Source: a virus
Reading direction: 5' to 3' (one strand)
DNA: 64,000 nucleotides
Virus record (IMG/VR): IMGVR_UViG_3300003322_000796
Location: 7,081-71,080 of that record
In this document: piece after piece, positions 3,595-15,444 of the stretch
Layout: every line of letters begins with the position of its first letter
Position numbering within the stretch: position 1 is the stretch's first letter
Position numbers and translations under genes: made by a program
The notes under the pieces: generated by a model
The model's input: the letters and a program-made list of their open reading frames with translations, nothing else
Database searches by the model: none
What the model was told of the DNA's origin: nothing

Positions 3595-3668
3595 TGCGCG
3601 GTAGAGCAGTTCGGTAGCTCGCTGGGCTCATAATCCAGAGGTCACGGGTTCAATTCCCGTCCGCGCTA
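3595..3668 (+). tRNA. tRNA-Met(CAT), initiator-like, CCA not encoded
   Basis: Cloverleaf: acceptor TGCGCGG/CCGCGCT with a 1:72 mismatch, D arm GAGC/GCTC (A11:U24), anticodon loop CTCATAA, T arm ACGGG-TTCAATT-CCCGT. Confidence 0.92.
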
Positions 3669-3675
3669 CTTCCAG

Positions 3676-9037: not shown

Positions 9038-10078
9038 ATGCCCAGGAAAGACCCGTACGGCGACCGGATGAAGGCGTACGAGCTGGTCACCAGGCTCACG
9101 CTGCCGCGCCGTACGTACACGATCGTCCGGGTGGACGGCAGGGCCTTCCACACTTACCTGAGGGGCGCCGAGAAGCCCTTCGACGCGGGTGTCATGGACG
9201 CCATGCAGGAGGTCGCCAAGGAGCTGTGCATGCAGATCTCCGGCGCCCGGTTCGCCTTCCAGCAGTCCGACGAGGTCTCGGTGCTGCTGACCGACCTGGA
9301 GCCCAAGACCGAGCCCTGGTTCGACGGCCAGGTCCAGAAGATCTCCTCGGTGGCGGCCTCGATCGCCACCATGGCCTTCAACCGGCACCACCCCGGCTTC
9401 CACGGGCCTGAGCGCTCGGCCCAGTTCGACGGCCGGGTCTACACGATCCCGGACCGCACCGAGGTGATCAATTACTTCCGGTGGCGCCAGGAGGACGCGA
9501 TCCGCAACGCGGTCTCCATGGCCGCTCAGGCCAACTTCCCGCACAAGTCCCTGCACGGACTGGACGCCGCCCAGCTCCAGGAGAAGCTCTTCCAGGAGAA
9601 GGGGATCAATTTTAAAAAGGAGTATCCCGACACTGCCCGCCGGGGAGCGCTCATCCACAAGGCGCTGTACTTCGTGGACGTCCCCAAGGAGCACCAGGAG
9701 AAGCACGGCAGGCCTCCGCGCGAGGTCCGGACCGAGTGGAGGGCCAAGGCGGCTCCGGAGTTCGGCTTGTACGACAGCGCGGCCGTGGCGAACCTCTTCC
9801 CCGGCTCCTCACCGGGTGCCGTGCCGGATGACATGGTCCAGATGTTCGGCTACGTGCTGGGCAGCGCCCTCATGAACACGGCTACCGACCCCGCCGGTGC
9901 CTTGTGGACGGCCAAGCAGATCCAGGAGTCCATGGGGGACCACATGTTCCGCGCCTGGATGATCGGCATGAACCCCTTCCTGGACGACCGGACCCCGCTG
10001 CTGGAGCTGCTCGACGGCAACATCACGGGCGTCGTCGCGGCGCACAAGGCCTACCTGAGGGGAGATGCGACCTCGTGA
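9038..10078 (+). CDS. thg1: Thg1-like tRNA-His guanylyltransferase (3'-5' polymerase) with a C-terminal extension
   Basis: RVDGRAFHTY, QSDEVSVLL, FDGRV, YFRWRQEDAIRNAVSM motifs; about 90 extra C-terminal residues. Confidence 0.93.
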   Translation: MPRKDPYGDRMKAYELVTRLTLPRRTYTIVRVDGRAFHTYLRGAEKPFDAGVMDAMQEVAKELCMQISGARFAFQQSDEVSVLLTDLEPKTEPWFDGQVQKISSVAASIATMAFNRHHPGFHGPERSAQFDGRVYTIPDRTEVINYFRWRQEDAIRNAVSMAAQANFPHKSLHGLDAAQLQEKLFQEKGINFKKEYPDTARRGALIHKALYFVDVPKEHQEKHGRPPREVRTEWRAKAAPEFGLYDSAAVANLFPGSSPGAVPDDMVQMFGYVLGSALMNTATDPAGALWTAKQIQESMGDHMFRAWMIGMNPFLDDRTPLLELLDGNITGVVAAHKAYLRGDATS

Positions 10079-11484: not shown

Positions 11485-11640
11485 GTGAAGCACGCAGGAC
11501 CCAGTGACCCGGGCGACGACTTCGACGCCTTGTACCGAGAGACAGCCGCCCGGGTGACGGCAGCGGGAGGGACACCCCTCCCGAACGACACCGCCAGCAC
11601 TGACAAGACCGACGAGTCCGAGGAGGACACCGATGGCTGA
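11485..11640 (+). CDS. small acidic protein (51 aa), not in the ORF track
   Basis: GAGGAG RBS, GTG start; overlaps the next ORF by 8 nt. Confidence 0.5.
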   Translation: MKHAGPSDPGDDFDALYRETAARVTAAGGTPLPNDTASTDKTDESEEDTDG

Positions 11641-11791
11641 GACACCGGAGCAGAAGGCCGAGAGCCTGAACAAGCAGTTCGAGGAGTCGAGGGCGCGGGC
11701 CGAGGCCCGTCCCCAGGGCCAGCCCGCCAAGCTCCCCGACAACCCGAGGACCGGCTCGGACGACCCGGACGACGACCCCGCCGGTCAGTGA
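11633..11791 (+). CDS. small acidic protein (52 aa), not in the ORF track
   Basis: GAGGAGG RBS; GC3-rich codons; ends just before the terminator. Confidence 0.6.
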   Translation: MAETPEQKAESLNKQFEESRARAEARPQGQPAKLPDNPRTGSDDPDDDPAGQ

Positions 11792-11798
11792 CACACAC

Positions 11799-11832
11799 GA
11801 AGGCCCCCTCTACCGCCGTGGAGGGGGCCTTC
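11799..11832. terminator. bidirectional terminator between convergent genes
   Basis: GAAGGCCCCCTC...GAGGGGGCCTTC. Confidence 0.8.
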
Positions 11833-11870
11833 GCCTTGCCGTTCACCCTGATGGTATCAAGGGCTGTCTC

Positions 11871-13589
11871 TCAGAACGGCCAGTCGCCGTTCCCGCGCTC
11901 CAGCAGGCTCATCATGCGGAAGACCTGGTCGGAGAAGCCGGAGATCTCGTACCGGTTCGGCTTCGACAGGTCGAAGCCCGTCGTCGCGTACCCGACACCG
12001 CCGACGCCGTACATGACCACATCCTCCGGAACGGCCGTGGAGACCGCCGTGGTGTCGCGGGGAACACTCCGGTCCGCGTACCAGACGCTCTGGTTGCGCT
12101 GCCAGTTGTAGTCCGCGAAGGCCTGCATGTCCGTGACGATGATGACCCGGCTGAACTCCGGCCGCCACAGCTTCTTCAGGGCCATGACGGTCTCCGTGCC
12201 CCCGCCCACCTCACCGATGCGCTGGACGAACGACTCGATCGCCCTGAGCACCGAACCACCCCGGGGGAGCTTGTGCTCGAAGGTGCGGTCGGCGAAGCCG
12301 TACAGCTCGGTGTGATCGCCCGCCTTGGCCATGGCCACCGCGAACAGGGCTGCGACGTCCGCGTAGTGGACTCTGGACTTCCCGCTGACGGGAGAGCGCA
12401 TGGACATGGAGGTGTCCGCGAGGACCAGCGTCGAGCCCGGCAGGTGCGGCAGGTTGCTCAGGGATGCGTCCAGGGCGTCCGAGAGGCACTCGCCCCACCA
12501 GTCGCTCTGTACGGCCCTGTACGCGCTCAGGAAGCGGTAGGGCATCTGGCGGGACCGCATGACCTCCGTCGGGTCGCTCAGGCGCTCCTGGACCCGCTTG
12601 CGGGCCGTCTTGGAGATCCCGGCCTTCTCGAAGTTCGCCAGGTTGCGGAGCATGGCCATGTAGCCCAGGGCGCCGCTGAAGATCAGCTTCTCCCAGAAGG
12701 CCGCGTCCAGCGGTCCCTGGAGCCAGCCGGAGAGCTGCTCCCAGGTGATCCCGGCCGCCTTGAGCTTCTCGGACGAGGTGGGCTCGTCCAGGAACGCGCG
12801 CCGCTCGCCGACCGGGATGGCCATGATCTCCTTGCGCCGCTGGAGCATGACCAGCTCGGAGGGAATCTCCGCCTTGCGGTTGTGGCGCTCGTTCAGGGCG
12901 TGCCGGTACAGGGCACCCTGCTTGGCGTCCTTGGGCGCAGGGTGCGTCAGCTCCACCACGTCGGCCAGCGAGTAGCCCTCCTCCACACGCCCGTACTTCT
13001 GGTAGGCGTACTCGTCGAAGAGATCGTTCAGGGCGAGCTGGAGGCCGCGCTTGACCGCCATCGGCAGCACCGGCGCGGAGTAGCGGCCCGGCTTGATCTC
13101 CCGGACGTTGCCCCAATTCGAGGCCCAGTAGGCGAGAAACTCGCCCGGCTCGTCCGCACGGGCCATGACCTGCGGGACGAAGTCCTTGTTGCCGACCTGG
13201 ATCGTGTCGCCGATCCAGGAGCGCTCGACCTCGAACGGGTCGGTGAGACCGGCCTCCAGCCGGGCCTTGAGGGCCTCGGCACCGCCCACCAGGGCAGCGG
13301 AGCGCATGTTCGCCTTGTTCCGCAGCCATCCCAGGAAGCGGTAGAGCCACGCGGGCTCGGTGACGGCGACCTGGCGGATCAGGTCCGCGTAGCGGCTGTC
13401 CCGGTCTTCGGCCGACTCGTAGAAGGTGGACTCGCCCACCATGTTCACGACGGCGAGGTTGAACAGCTCGGAGCGGACGTCACGGGTATATCCCGCGCCG
13501 CCCTCGTACGTGGTGGCCGTGGCCACCGTGGTCTGGACGCTGACCGGTCCGGACCTGAGGGCCGCCCTGGACCCCTGGAACTTGGACAT
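11871..13589 (-). CDS. rsr: Ro60 ortholog (TROVE plus vWA domain RNA-binding protein)
   Basis: TYEGG.GY.RD.RSELF N-terminus; W..L......GYMAMLRNL.NF; SRQMPYRFLSAY; vWA MIDAS DTSMS; adjacent Y-like RNAs. Confidence 0.95.
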   Translation of the reverse strand: MSKFQGSRAALRSGPVSVQTTVATATTYEGGAGYTRDVRSELFNLAVVNMVGESTFYESAEDRDSRYADLIRQVAVTEPAWLYRFLGWLRNKANMRSAALVGGAEALKARLEAGLTDPFEVERSWIGDTIQVGNKDFVPQVMARADEPGEFLAYWASNWGNVREIKPGRYSAPVLPMAVKRGLQLALNDLFDEYAYQKYGRVEEGYSLADVVELTHPAPKDAKQGALYRHALNERHNRKAEIPSELVMLQRRKEIMAIPVGERRAFLDEPTSSEKLKAAGITWEQLSGWLQGPLDAAFWEKLIFSGALGYMAMLRNLANFEKAGISKTARKRVQERLSDPTEVMRSRQMPYRFLSAYRAVQSDWWGECLSDALDASLSNLPHLPGSTLVLADTSMSMRSPVSGKSRVHYADVAALFAVAMAKAGDHTELYGFADRTFEHKLPRGGSVLRAIESFVQRIGEVGGGTETVMALKKLWRPEFSRVIIVTDMQAFADYNWQRNQSVWYADRSVPRDTTAVSTAVPEDVVMYGVGGVGYATTGFDLSKPNRYEISGFSDQVFRMMSLLERGNGDWPF

Positions 13590-13593
13590 GCGA

Positions 13594-13623
13594 AAGCCCC
13601 TCTCTGGCGGGCAGGAGGGGCTT
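13594..13623 (-). promoter_or_regulatory. hairpin between the Y-RNA array and rsr that contains the rsr Shine-Dalgarno
   Basis: Minus strand AAGCCCCTC-loop-GAGGGGCTTTCGC-ATG. Confidence 0.55.
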
Positions 13624-13630
13624 GGCGGTG

Positions 13631-13776
13631 TGGCTGAGAACTGAGTTGACGGAGACGTTTCTAAAAGGCCTGCGCTCTACCGGACTGAGCTACCTCGCGA
13701 AGAGTCACGAGGGCTGGATTTGAACCAGCGACTTCAGGCTCCCGGGTTGAAGTAATCCCTGTCTTCGCATCAGCCA
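13631..13776 (-). ncRNA. YrlA-like Y RNA with a circularly permuted tRNA domain (module A)
   Basis: Terminal stem UGGCUGA/UCAGCCA; GAUGCGAA...CAGUUCUC motif; T arm GCUGG-UUCAAAU-CCAGC, looped acceptor stem CCUCGUGA/UCGCGAGG, D arm GCUC-AGUCCGGUA-GAGC. Confidence 0.88.
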
Positions 13777-13787
13777 CGGAGCAAGAC

Positions 13788-13860
13788 CCTCCCGTGAACT
13801 GGTGGTGGCGCAGGTGTTTTCGGTATGGAACGAAGTATCCCGCGCCTTCGCATCGGGAGG
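13788..13860 (-). ncRNA. minimal Y-like RNA without a tRNA domain (module B)
   Basis: Stem CCUCCCG/CGGGAGG enclosing GAUGCGAA...GGGAUACUUC...CAGUUCAC. Confidence 0.75.
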
Positions 13861-13883
13861 ATGCGTATGCGCTGTCGTAGCGC

Positions 13884-14047
13884 TGGGAGATGCTCGTGGA
13901 CTGGGTAGGTCAGGAGACCGTGCCCGGTAGCCCCCAGGCTGTGTCGAAGACACTGGGCCCCGAAGAGCCCATGAGGAGTCGAACCTCTGGTGATTTGTTT
14001 TCGAGACAAATTGAAGGAGCCCGACCATTTGCATCGAGCATCTTCCA
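13884..14047 (-). ncRNA. Y-like RNA with a divergent tRNA-like domain (module C)
   Basis: 12-bp terminal stem; GAUGCAAA...GGGCUCCUUC...CAGUCCAC; T arm GAGG-UUCGACU-CCUC; UUCG-capped acceptor; D arm replaced by a GUGUC/GACAC hairpin. Confidence 0.75.
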
Positions 14048-14076
14048 CCACTACGACATTCGGAATATGCGGGTTC

Positions 14077-14220
14077 GAGAACCTTGCGAGAACTGAGTCG
14101 CGCAGGACACGAGGCCGTTGCTCTACCACCTGAGCTACACCGGGTCAGGCCCGGTGAATGGATTCGAACCACTGACAGACGGATTAAGAAGGAACCCGCA
14201 CATTCGCATCGCAGGCTCTC
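14077..14220 (-). ncRNA. YrlA-like Y RNA with a circularly permuted tRNA domain (module D)
   Basis: GAUGCGAA...GGGUUCCUUC...CAGUUCUC; T arm GUGG-UUCGAAU-CCAU, acceptor CACCGGG/CCCGGUG, D arm GCUC-AGGUGGUA-GAGC. Confidence 0.88.
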
Positions 14221-14250
14221 GATCCCGCACATTCCGCGATATGGAGTTGT

Positions 14251-14328
14251 CAAGGGCCGAGAACTCGTTGGTGGAGGTGTCTTGTCCAATCCTCAATTGA
14301 AGGAACCCCCGCCGTTCGCATCGGCTTG
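14251..14328 (-). ncRNA. minimal Y-like RNA without a tRNA domain (module E)
   Basis: Stem CAAG-CCGA/UCGG-CUUG enclosing GAUGCGAA...GGGUUCCUUC...GAGUUCUC. Confidence 0.75.
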
Positions 14329-14334
14329 ATCCCC

Positions 14335-14364
14335 ATCATGCACTACCAACCAACCCTGGAGCAA
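14335..14364 (-). promoter_or_regulatory. candidate promoter for the Y-RNA/rsr transcript
   Basis: Minus strand TTGCTC-N18-CATGAT; predicted start about 14328, matching the 5' end of module E; contains CTCCAGGG. Confidence 0.55.
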
Positions 14365-14417
14365 CCAAGTAAGGTGTCTGGGGCCGCCGACTGCATATGC
14401 CACCCTCTCCAGGGATC

Positions 14418-14446
14418 TTGCACTCCAAGGATTCTGTGCGTAGCGT
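14418..14446 (+). promoter_or_regulatory. early-type promoter divergent from the Y-RNA promoter
   Basis: TTGCAC-N17-TAGCGT with a CTCCAAGGATTCT spacer. Confidence 0.6.
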
Positions 14447-14482
14447 CAGAGTGACCTTCCCTGTACACCGGAGGTCATCCCA

Positions 14483-14671
14483 GTGGACGACATGCTCGGC
14501 GTTCTGCTCAAGACCGTGGACCGGCTCCTGATTGCTCAGGGGGCTGACCCGACGATCGTTCCCGACACCGACAAGATCTTCATCGCGGCTGAGCACGTAG
14601 AGGTGGTCGCGACGAATCTGACTCCCCAGGAGGTAGCCCGTGGCGCTGTGTCTCGCCCCGAACCCGTCTGA
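14483..14671 (+). CDS. small hypothetical protein
   Basis: GGAGG RBS; 62 aa. Confidence 0.6.
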   Translation: MDDMLGVLLKTVDRLLIAQGADPTIVPDTDKIFIAAEHVEVVATNLTPQEVARGAVSRPEPV

Positions 14672-14843
14672 CTCCGCCGTACTGTGCGACAAGCAGCAGC
14701 CCTGTTACGGCTTCCACGCCAATGCGACGGCCTCGCAGAGCTGGCCCGGCAATCCTCTGCCGGAGAGGGCCCCGCAGACCCCCAAGGGCGGCAAGAGCCG
14801 TAAGGCCGCCCTCGCGCTGATCGCCGACCGCGCCCAGCGCTGA
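14640..14843 (+). CDS. small Cys/His protein
   Basis: GGAGG RBS; C-x11-C-x5-C-x3-H; basic C-terminus. Confidence 0.65.
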   Translation: MALCLAPNPSDSAVLCDKQQPCYGFHANATASQSWPGNPLPERAPQTPKGGKSRKAALALIADRAQR

Positions 14844-14868
14844 TCCGCCAGAGAGGATTTTAAAAACC

Positions 14869-15444
14869 GTGCTCGCCGACTTCGAGATCCGCAAGGCCAA
14901 CGACGACGGCCTGATCACCATCGAGCCGTGGGCGGAGGAGCGCCTCCAGCCTGTCTCGTACGACCTGACGCTCGACTCCTGTGCCCGCTTCGCCCCGCAC
15001 CCCGAGCGTGTGGGCCTGATCGACCCCAAGGGCCTGTCGACGCGCTCCGACGCGATCCAGACCAACCAGGGCGTCGACTACATGGACAAGGGGGCCATCC
15101 CCTCCACCGGCTACACCCTCAAGCCGGGGGAGTTCCTCCTGGCGTGCACCCAAGAGGAGGTGACCCTCTCTCCGCACATCGCCGCGAGGGTGGAGGGCAA
15201 GTCCTCTCTCGGCCGCCTGGGAGTACAGGTCCACATCACCGCAGGGTTCATCGATCCCGGCTTCGGCGGCCAGATCACCCTGGAGATCGCCAATGTGGCC
15301 CCCTGGGCCGTGATGCTCTACCCCGGGATGCCGATCGCCCAGATCGTCTTCGAGCCCGTGAGTGCCCCCGAGCGGGACTACACCATCACGGGCCGCTACT
15401 GCGGCCAGCGGGGGCCGACCGAGAGCCGCTACACGCTCGCGTAA
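14869..15444 (+). CDS. dcd: dCTP deaminase (dUTPase superfamily)
   Basis: QPVSYDL, EGKSSLGRLG, TAGFIDPGF.GQITLE, GMPIAQ motifs. Confidence 0.95.
   Translation: MLADFEIRKANDDGLITIEPWAEERLQPVSYDLTLDSCARFAPHPERVGLIDPKGLSTRSDAIQTNQGVDYMDKGAIPSTGYTLKPGEFLLACTQEEVTLSPHIAARVEGKSSLGRLGVQVHITAGFIDPGFGGQITLEIANVAPWAVMLYPGMPIAQIVFEPVSAPERDYTITGRYCGQRGPTESRYTLA

What the first reader, a model, noticed from the sequence alone, without database searches (positions are those of the whole stretch)
11871..14364. Ro60 gene co-transcribed with an array of five Y-RNA-like modules
Seen: the 700 bp upstream of the Ro60 gene holds five modules, each closed by its own terminal stem and each carrying 5'-GAUGC(G/A)AA...GGG-N(2-3)-(C/A)CUUC and 3'-(C/G)AGU(U/C)C(U/A)C. 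Modules A and D contain a tRNA in permuted order (T arm, loop-closed acceptor, D arm), module C a divergent version, and modules B and E none. A candidate promoter lies directly 5' of module E. Established: bacterial Ro60 (Rsr) binds Y RNAs, YrlA RNAs mimic tRNA in this T-AS-D order, and Ro/YrlA loci are known in some phages. Inference: five paralogs in three architectures could load one Ro protein with different adaptors, or act as tRNA decoys against host tRNA-cleaving defences.
Basis: partly seen in the sequence, partly recalled or inferred. Interest (0 to 1): 0.88.

Follow-up and report, generated by a model that had tools for sequence, protein, structure and literature searches.

The report
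Phage Ro60 gene with five Y RNAs
An uncultivated soil or root actinophage carries a Ro60 RNA-binding protein gene preceded by five small structured "Y RNA" genes; the array is real and well conserved, but it is an ordinary example of an arrangement common in actinobacteria and their phages.

Summary
On the minus strand, 13630-14328 holds five stem-closed RNA modules directly upstream of a TROVE+vWA Ro60 gene (11871-13589).

I built covariance models only from other phages' loci, and they match all five modules. The long YrlA-type model hits A (102 bits), D (82 bits) and C (37 bits, D arm replaced). The short-module model hits B (50 bits) and E (36 bits). Nothing else in the 64-kb window scores significantly.

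Both models rest on strong covariation. A relative whose Ro60 is 79% identical has the same five modules, with compensatory changes.

The module order (short, YrlA, T-arm-only, short, YrlA) is conserved down to about 53% Ro60 identity, and the two YrlA-type copies are old paralogs.

The arrangement is not rare. The long model gives 205 hits in 75 viral Ro loci and 126 hits in 55 actinobacterial chromosomal loci, all on the Ro strand, with up to 8 per locus. Cultured phages (Satis, Atuin, Alone3, VanLee) have 3-5 modules.

M. smegmatis YrlA and YrlB, processed from one precursor upstream of rsr, are the published precedent. This scan has also reported Ro60-plus-Y-RNA arrays on other phage DNA.

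Expression, Ro binding and function are untested. Verdict: new member of a known kind.

The parts
11871..13589 (-). Ro60/Rsr ortholog, 572 aa (TROVE ring plus vWA domain with a DxSxS MIDAS motif)
   Evidence: Pfam TROVE 68.9 bits and VWA_2 31.5 bits. D392, S394 and S396 are invariant in 24 homologs. The nearest solved structure is Thermus phage phiLo Ro60, 9KOP/9L5Y, E 2.9e-22.
13630..13777 (-). Module A: Ro-proximal YrlA-type Y RNA (terminal stem, GAUGCGAA/CAGUUC site, stem 2, T arm, 8-bp closed acceptor stem, D arm)
   Evidence: R2 gives 101.8 bits, E 6.7e-22, full length. Rfam YrlA covers model positions 23-85, E 3.5e-6. Fold.
13786..13862 (-). Module B: short Y RNA without a tRNA-like domain
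   Evidence: R1 gives 49.9 bits, E 2e-9, full length, and is the top hit in the window. Fold z -4.0.
13886..14046 (-). Module C: divergent Y RNA with an anticodon-arm-like V hairpin, a T arm and a 7-bp UUCG-capped acceptor-like stem. The D arm is replaced by other hairpins. The motif is GCAAA/AGUCC instead of GCGAA/AGUUC.
   Evidence: R2 gives 37.3 bits, E 7.6e-7, with a 29-nt insert in place of the D arm. Fold z -4.0. In L004 the G.U pair takes the place of A.C at the same position.
14077..14220 (-). Module D: distal YrlA-type Y RNA (T arm, 7-bp closed acceptor stem, D arm)
   Evidence: R2 gives 82.2 bits, E 2.5e-17. Rfam YrlA partial match, E 4.1e-5.
14061..14236 (-). Extended closing helix of about 27 bp around module D (flanks 14217-14236 and 14061-14080 plus the inner stem); candidate double-strand processing site
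   Evidence: Fold of 14055-14242: -84.9 kcal/mol, z -5.7. The ortholog in L005 has a long closing helix of different sequence, z -5.1. Outer stems also appear in L007 and L028.
14251..14328 (-). Module E: short Y RNA, first in the array
   Evidence: R1 gives 36.2 bits, E 3.1e-6, full length. L004 has a compensatory C-G to U-A change in the terminal stem.
14335..14364 (-). Promoter-like element TTGCTC-N18-CATGAT. Its -10 end lies 7 nt before the first base of module E.
   Evidence: TTGCTCC...TTGGTAGTGCAT is invariant in the window, L004, L005, L007 and L028, while the flanks diverge. It was not called by the consensus scan. It is unique in the window.
13594..13623 (-). GC-rich hairpin between module A and the Ro60 start codon. 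Its 3' arm contains the Shine-Dalgarno-like GAGAGGGG.
   Evidence: -21.4 kcal/mol, z -3.5. It is conserved in L004. In L005 the equivalent hairpin is separate and upstream of the RBS.
11797..11833 (.). Hairpin after the Ro60 stop codon, between convergent genes; likely terminator of the unit
   Evidence: Read directly from the sequence: AAGGCCCCCTC...GAGGGGGCCTT. The terminator scan did not call it because it has no T run.

Best explanation
This is a phage Ro60-Y RNA locus.

Proposed layout: one transcription unit starts at a conserved promoter-like element just 5' of module E. It runs through five Y RNA modules (E, D, C, B, A) and a hairpin that holds the ribosome-binding site. It continues through the Ro60 gene and ends at a hairpin after the stop codon.

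Proposed processing (inferred): the precursor is cut into five stable RNAs of about 75-160 nt. The long closing helices around D and C look like double-strand RNase sites. The 7-8-bp acceptor-like stems of A, D and C could be RNase P sites, as in M. smegmatis YrlA.

Proposed binding (inferred): each RNA binds the outer face of the Ro60 ring through the shared bulged helix, 5' GAUGCGAA paired with 3' CAGUUC. This carries the CGAA signature of Ro60 binding sites.

Proposed function (inferred): the different apical parts are a full tRNA mimic, a T-arm-only version and a plain hairpin. They would act as alternative adaptors that couple Ro60 to other factors, such as host PNPase or tRNA-binding enzymes, to handle structured or damaged RNA during infection.

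Shown here: the gene, the five modules, their family membership, covariation, conserved order, old paralogy and strand linkage to Ro60. Inferred by analogy with published systems: transcription, processing, Ro binding and function.
For: Gene identity:
- Ro60 identity from domains, MIDAS motif and nearest solved structure.

Motif and model matches:
- Five motif copies against none expected.
- Models trained without the window or L004 match all five modules. R2 hits A (101.8 bits), D (82.2 bits) and C (37.3 bits). R1 hits B (49.9 bits) and E (36.2 bits), and the next-best hit in 64 kb scores only 18.7 bits.

Covariation:
- Short family: 90.4% of cells paired against 71.9% in shuffles; 54 double-sided changes against 14.9; slid controls 39-59%.
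- Long family: 24 of 29 pairs have compensatory changes.
- Window versus L004 shows compensatory changes in terminal stems, and an A.C to G.U switch in module C.

Conservation:
- The array is 83.7% identical between the window and L004, against 73.9% at Ro60 third codon positions. Gap runs break any reading frame.

Strand and position:
- All 205 viral hits and all 126 bacterial hits lie on the Ro strand, mostly within 1.3 kb upstream.

Paralogy:
- Ro-proximal and distal YrlA-type copies form separate clades, support 0.99.

Published precedent:
- M. smegmatis YrlA and YrlB lie upstream of rsr, are processed from a single precursor and are bound by Rsr. YrlA with a 7-bp acceptor stem is cut by RNase P (PMC4201824).
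- Thermus phage phiLo Ro60 binds two upstream Yrl RNAs and host PNPase (PMC12135203).
Against: - There are no expression data. No RNA run holds this sequence.
- The Rfam YrlA hits are partial and reach only about half the gathering score.
- The promoter-like element matches the sigma-70 consensus weakly and was not called by the scan.
- The hairpin before the ATG could terminate most transcripts, so the RNAs and the Ro60 mRNA may not be made in equal amounts, or Ro60 may have another promoter.
- The exact pairing in the Ro-binding helix is ambiguous. Different registers fit the window variant and the family consensus.
- Fold z-scores for E and D alone are weak (-1.3 and -1.7).
Confidence: 0.85

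Rival explanations
1. The five modules are a structured 5' leader that acts only in cis. Ro60 would bind its own leader to control read-through of the pre-ATG hairpin or translation, and the modules would not be released as stable RNAs.
For: The modules lie between the only conserved promoter-like element and the Ro60 ATG. A stable hairpin holding the ribosome-binding site follows module A. Every module carries the putative Ro site.
Against: In some viral loci the arrays lie downstream of the Ro gene (L040, L046, L039). In Atuin they lie on both sides, between tRNA genes. Those positions cannot serve as a leader. The M. smegmatis homologs are processed, stable RNAs bound by Rsr. Five anciently separate paralogs are more than a leader needs.
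Confidence: 0.08
2. The modules are decayed or unusual tRNA genes (a degenerate phage tRNA cluster) with no link to Ro60.
For: T and D arms are close to the tRNA consensus. Cultured phages hold Ro genes inside tRNA clusters, and annotators called two such modules tRNA. There is a weak Rfam tRNA hit in module C, E 1.3.
Against: ARAGORN calls no tRNA here. The arm order is permuted, the acceptor is closed by a loop, and B and E have no tRNA-like part. All five share the Ro-site helix, with covariation. Linkage to the Ro strand is complete in 331 hits.
Confidence: 0.02
3. The region encodes a protein: the 194-aa ORF at 13705-14289 on the minus strand.
For: An open frame of 194 aa exists.
Against: Gap runs of 1, 2, 4, 5, 7 and 13 nt against L004 break any frame. 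No gene is called in the same gap in L004 or L005. Long chance ORFs are common at 65-70% GC.
Confidence: 0.01
4. Same RNAs, different job: the RNP is mainly a counter-defence device. It could be a decoy or inhibitor against host immunity that senses or cuts tRNA or other RNA, rather than an RNA quality-control helper.
For: A Ro60-like protein of phage Bas63 (gp130), next to tRNA-like genes, counters the ppl defence system (PMC11482910). The phiLo authors propose hijack of host PNPase. A Thg1-like tRNA 5'-end repair gene lies 1.8 kb away and stays in synteny within this clade. Module C, and about half of the long modules elsewhere, carry an anticodon-arm-like hairpin.
Against: The same arrays sit beside chromosomal Ro genes of 55 actinobacteria, so the system is not phage-specific. 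A and D lack an anticodon loop. There is no functional data for any actinophage Ro.
Confidence: 0.25

Closest known systems
Mycobacterium smegmatis rsr locus with YrlA and YrlB (Chen et al. 2014, PMC4201824)
   Same: Actinobacterial-type Ro60 with Y RNAs encoded directly upstream on the same strand. One is a full T/AS/D tRNA mimic of about 147 nt with a 7-bp acceptor-like stem; another has only a T arm. The published RNAs come from one precursor and bind Rsr.
   Different: Two RNAs there, five here, including two short modules with no tRNA-like part. This locus is in a phage. The Ro-site variant here is GAUGCGAA/CAGUUC. Nothing here has been tested experimentally.
Rfam YrlA (RF02553); Salmonella Typhimurium YrlA and YrlB in the rsr-rtcBA operon; YrlA structure 6CU1
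   Same: Permuted tRNA mimic joined to a Ro-binding stem. The conserved UA after the stem (GGNUACUUC here) corresponds to the kink dinucleotide described for YrlA. There is a link with RNA repair genes: RtcB/RtcA there, Thg1-like here.
   Different: Modules A and D reach only 36.6 and 33 bits against a gathering score of 69, and only over model positions 23-85. There is no RtcR control and no rtcBA.
Thermus phage phiLo Ro60 with Yrl1 and Yrl2 (PMC12135203; PDB 9KOP, 9L5Y)
   Same: A phage Ro60 with Y-RNA-like genes upstream that carry a CGAA motif in a stem-bulge-stem. It is the nearest solved structure to this protein.
   Different: Two RNAs rather than five. The protein is distant (E 2.9e-22 over the C-terminal part only). 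A ternary complex with host PNPase was shown there and not here.
Deinococcus radiodurans Rsr-Yrn1-PNPase (RYPER) and the four small RNAs upstream of rsr
   Same: Several small RNAs encoded upstream of the Ro gene. The Y RNA tethers Ro to an exoribonuclease, which is the adaptor model used here.
   Different: Yrn1 has a different tRNA-like arrangement and probably an independent origin. A PNPase partner is not shown for this phage.
Phage Bas63 gp130, a Ro60-like counter of the ppl defence system (PMC11482910)
   Same: A phage Ro60-like protein next to tRNA-like RNA genes, with an experimentally shown infection phenotype.
   Different: Very distant protein and host (a Felix O1-like coliphage). 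Its RNAs are uncharacterised. There is no evidence that this phage meets ppl.

Membership tests
Ro60/Rsr protein | TROVE (HEAT-repeat ring) domain | tested here: met
   PF05731, 68.9 bits against a cut-off of 23. 890 homologs with E below 1e-30, all carrying TROVE.
Ro60/Rsr protein | C-terminal vWA domain with a MIDAS DxSxS motif | tested here: met
   PF13519, 31.5 bits. D392, S394 and S396 are invariant in the 24-sequence alignment.
Y RNA (Ro60-bound ncRNA) | 5' and 3' ends pair into a long stem that carries a conserved bulged helix with the CGAA (GNCGAAN0-1G-like) 5' strand | tested here: met
   Four of five modules have UGCGAA followed by G, U or C. Module C has UGCAAA, with U-to-C on the opposite strand. 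Terminal-stem covariation is shown. The exact GNCGAA spacing is not reproduced (UGCGAA instead).
Y RNA (Ro60-bound ncRNA) | Encoded next to the Ro60 gene and on the same strand | tested here: met
   All five lie within 740 nt upstream, on the same strand. The same holds for 331 family hits at 130 other loci.
Y RNA (Ro60-bound ncRNA) | Expressed as a discrete small RNA and bound by Ro60 | not testable with these tools
   No RNA run holds the sequence. No RNA-protein docking tool is available.
YrlA (Rfam RF02553) | tRNA-like domain in the order T arm, loop-closed acceptor stem, D arm | tested here: met
   Met for modules A and D. Module C has the T arm and acceptor stem only. B and E have none.
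YrlA (Rfam RF02553) | Score at or above the Rfam gathering threshold (69 bits) over the whole model | tested here: not met
   36.6 and 33.0 bits, over model positions 23-85 only. The stem part of the Rfam model does not fit, so these are relatives of YrlA rather than Rfam-defined members.
Actinophage/actinobacterial Y RNA families defined here (models R1 and R2) | Full-length match to a covariance model built without the window's own sequences | tested here: met
   A 101.8, D 82.2 and C 37.3 bits with R2. B 49.9 and E 36.2 bits with R1.

The most novel reading that the evidence does not exclude
The five modules are anciently separated, non-redundant adaptors. One phage Ro60 ring would be loaded with different RNAs that each recruit a different partner, for example PNPase through the short modules and RNase P, the CCA-adding enzyme or the neighbouring Thg1-like enzyme through the tRNA-like ones. 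The set as a whole would work as a counter-defence or RNA-repair hub against host RNA-targeting immunity.
Probability: 0.15. Interest if true: 0.7.

Novelty: new member of a known kind. Interest (0 to 1): 0.38.

Why it matters
The locus adds a clean, well-conserved five-RNA example to the Ro60-Y RNA system, whose function in bacteria and phages is still poorly understood.

The more useful result is the survey made along the way. Tandem arrays of 3-8 Y RNA modules in a conserved order are the rule beside Ro60 genes of actinophages and actinobacteria. This includes cultured phages on tractable hosts: Satis and Alone3 on Streptomyces lividans, Atuin on Arthrobacter and VanLee on Gordonia. In those records the modules are unannotated, or in two cases overlap a feature annotated as tRNA. 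These phages would allow direct tests of whether different Y RNAs give one Ro60 ring different partners.

Tried and rejected
- Rfam at gathering thresholds finds nothing in the region. Only the relaxed search shows partial YrlA hits.
- The sigma-70 promoter and intrinsic-terminator scans call nothing in 11500-15000.
- Exact-motif searches fail in relatives with less than 60% Ro identity, because each clade has its own Ro-site variant.
- My heuristic module caller (anchor GG-N-CTTC plus best closing helix) miscalls some stems and misses module E. I used it only to pick seed sequences and for rough counts. The stem-2 partner-swap test built on it is only modest: 43% against 20% reach the score threshold. 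The within-locus versus between-locus motif identity is also modest and blurred by register errors: 0.49 against 0.38.
- RNA expression could not be tested. Eight runs hold at least part of the stretch (one holds nearly all of it); all are soil, rhizosphere or root metagenomes or of unstated origin, and none is on record as RNA.
- The Annual Review on bacterial Ro60 (PMC10870794) and the supplementary tables of Chen et al. 2014 are not held. I therefore could not check how many YrlA-like hits per phage were already tabulated.
- The Thg1-Ro linkage is limited to this clade: 4 of 173 fetched loci.
- I rejected three readings: a protein-coding reading of the 194-aa ORF, a degenerate tRNA cluster, and chance repeats.
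Full report
**Source and gene.** The window is part of an 86.4-kb IMG/VR viral contig with an estimated completeness of 56%. It is about 67% GC. Its only DNA-level relatives among cultured phages are large Streptomyces phages, and these are distant. The sequence itself turns up in root, rhizosphere and soil metagenomes. The minus-strand ORF 11871-13589 encodes a 572-aa protein with a TROVE domain and a vWA domain. Its MIDAS residues D392, S394 and S396 are invariant among 24 homologs. The nearest solved structure is the Ro60 of Thermus phage phiLo. It is a Ro60/Rsr ortholog.

**The five modules.** The 3' motif is common in the window as a whole. However, five copies lie here, each directly before the 3' strand of a terminal stem.

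All five modules share the same scaffold:
- a terminal stem;
- a bulged helix with 5' GAUGCGAA opposite 3' CAGUUC;
- a second stem whose 5' strand ends in GGG;
- (C/A)CUUC after two or three bases, followed by a variable apical part.

Stems 1 and 2 differ in sequence from module to module but stay complementary. Module C has GCAAA/AGUCC where the others have GCGAA/AGUUC. Its ortholog in L004 has the G.U form, which is an isosteric A.C to G.U switch at one predicted pair.

**Family membership, tested independently.** Rfam's YrlA model matches only the tRNA-like core of A and D, below its gathering score. I therefore built two covariance models from other phages' loci only.

- R1 was built from 22 short modules. 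On its seed alignment 90.4% of cells are paired, against 71.9% in shuffles. There are 54 double-sided changes against 14.9, and slid controls give 39-59%.
- R2 was built from 35 long modules. Its RNAalifold structure covers stem 1, stem 2, the T arm, the closed acceptor stem and the D arm. Compensatory changes occur in 24 of 29 pairs.

Across the whole 64-kb window on both strands, R1 finds B (49.9 bits) and E (36.2 bits); the next hit scores 18.7 bits. R2 finds A (101.8 bits), D (82.2 bits) and C (37.3 bits, with a 29-nt insert in place of the D arm), and nothing else of note. The rest of the contig holds no further copies.

**Close relatives.** A contig whose Ro60 is 79% identical (L004) has the same five modules. 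The array is 83.7% identical to the window's. Ro60 third codon positions are only 73.9% identical, and the indels break any reading frame. This shows purifying selection on an RNA and excludes the 194-aa ORF.

More distant members of the clade (L005, L007, L028; Ro identity 53-59%) keep a gap of about 0.9-1.0 kb with five or six modules in the same order: short, YrlA-type, T-arm-only, short or other, YrlA-type. In a tree of the YrlA-type modules, the Ro-proximal copies of all five phages form one clade (support 0.99), apart from the distal copies. The paralogs are therefore older than these phages' divergence and have been kept separately. This argues for distinct roles.

**How common this is.** Over 75 IMG/VR Ro loci, R2 gives 205 hits at E up to 0.001, all on the Ro strand and mostly within 1.3 kb upstream, with up to eight per locus in L049. 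In three loci the array lies after the gene. Over 55 actinobacterial chromosomal Ro loci it gives 126 hits, again all on the Ro strand, with up to five per locus in L138, Planomonospora.

Cultured phages also carry arrays:
- Satis: 3 modules;
- Atuin: at least 5, on both sides of Ro and between tRNA genes;
- Alone3: 4-5;
- VanLee: 4.

These modules are unannotated, or they overlap features annotated as tRNA. Each locus has its own variant of the Ro-site motif shared by all its modules. This fits co-evolution with the neighbouring Ro60, although my numerical test of it is weak. Five modules is thus in the upper range of a common arrangement and not an exception. Earlier reports of this scan describe Ro60-like genes with four or five Y-like RNAs in other phages.

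**Transcription unit (inferred).** A block TTGCTCC-N11-TTGGTAGTGCAT is invariant in five phages whose flanks have diverged. Read as TTGCTC-N18-CATGAT (14364-14335), it would start transcripts at about the first base of module E (14328). It is a weak consensus match, it was not called by the scan, and it is unique in the window.

Between module A and the ATG lie only 40 nt. These are filled by a hairpin of -21.4 kcal/mol (z -3.5) whose 3' arm holds the Shine-Dalgarno-like GAGAGGGG. L005 has the equivalent hairpin further upstream of its RBS. Ro60 mRNA most likely arises by read-through of the array. The hairpin could lower read-through or translation, which would give more RNA than protein. A further hairpin follows the stop codon.

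Module D together with its flanks closes into a helix of about 27 bp (z -5.7). The orthologous module in L005 does the same with a different sequence. Similar outer stems surround the C-type modules. These are plausible double-strand RNase processing sites.

A, D and C have 7-8-bp acceptor-like stems. This is the feature that makes M. smegmatis YrlA an RNase P substrate, followed by CCA addition.

**Comparison with what is known.** Chen et al. 2014 (PMC4201824) reported YrlA-like RNAs next to Ro60 in 254 bacteria and 22 phages. They showed that M. smegmatis YrlA and a T-arm-only YrlB lie upstream of rsr, come from a single precursor and bind Rsr. Salmonella YrlB lacks a tRNA-like domain. D. 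radiodurans has four small RNAs upstream of rsr. Phage phiLo Ro60 binds two upstream Yrl RNAs and host PNPase. All three architectures seen here, and the idea of several Y RNAs per Ro60, are therefore published. What is new is the number, the conserved order, and the breadth of the arrangement.

Function is open. The adaptor model is an analogy with the Deinococcus Ro-Y RNA-PNPase complex. A counter-defence role is suggested by Bas63 gp130, and by the Thg1-like gene 1.8 kb away (9038-10078). That gene stays in synteny within this clade only. An anticodon-nuclease decoy role fits A and D poorly, because they have no anticodon loop.

**Verdict.** This is a new member of a known kind, and interest is moderate to low. 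No expression or binding evidence is available.

Noticed in passing
Loci of alignment A6 (for example L024:1821-1958, L037:1822-1957, L042:1452-1581); window 14001-14019(-) in module C: In about half of the long modules, the hairpin between ACUUC and the T arm (the 'V' arm) has a 3-6-bp stem (5 bp in most) and a 7-nt loop with U at loop position 2 and a purine at position 6. Examples are CUGCUAA, CUGAUAA, CUGUUAA and CUUUUAA. This holds for 18 of 35 sequences, with varied middle triplets. It is the anatomy of an anticodon arm. It fits the published idea that YrlA arose from a dimeric tRNA transcript, and it could matter for tRNA mimicry. Module C of the window has AUUUGU-CUCGAAA-ACAAAU.
   Followed up: partly
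L090:2099-2170 (Gordonia phage VanLee tRNA-Arg(tct)); L089:2169-2242 (Streptomyces phage Alone3 tRNA-Ser(gct)): These annotated tRNA genes lie inside strong full-length matches to the Y RNA model R2: L090 2098-2235 at 113 bits, and L089 2164-2309 at 71 bits. They may be Y RNA tRNA-like domains annotated as tRNAs.
   Followed up: partly
window 9038-10078 (+): A Thg1-like 3'-5' nucleotidyltransferase gene (Pfam Thg1, 97 bits) lies 1.8 kb beyond the Ro60 stop, convergent with it. The same neighbourhood is kept in L004, L005/L006 (two Thg1 genes) and L028, but in no other fetched Ro locus (4 of 173).
   Followed up: partly
window 14418-14446 (+): A divergent promoter-like element TTGCAC-N17-TAGCGT faces the plus-strand genes (small ORFs, then dCTP deaminase at 14869-15444). 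It is conserved in the same five phages. The intergenic region therefore appears to hold back-to-back promoters.
   Followed up: partly
L138 (Planomonospora venezuelensis), L147, L153, L132, L114: Chromosomal Ro60 loci of actinobacteria carry 4-5 tandem Y RNA modules upstream of the gene, so multi-module arrays are not a phage speciality.
   Followed up: partly
L040:3751-4821, L046:3757-4338, L039:3769-4056: In a few viral loci the Y RNA array lies downstream of the Ro60 gene instead of upstream.
   Followed up: no
window 3595-3669 (+): A single tRNA-Met(cat) gene is the only canonical tRNA in the window. By contrast, cultured actinophages place Ro60 inside large tRNA clusters.
   Followed up: no
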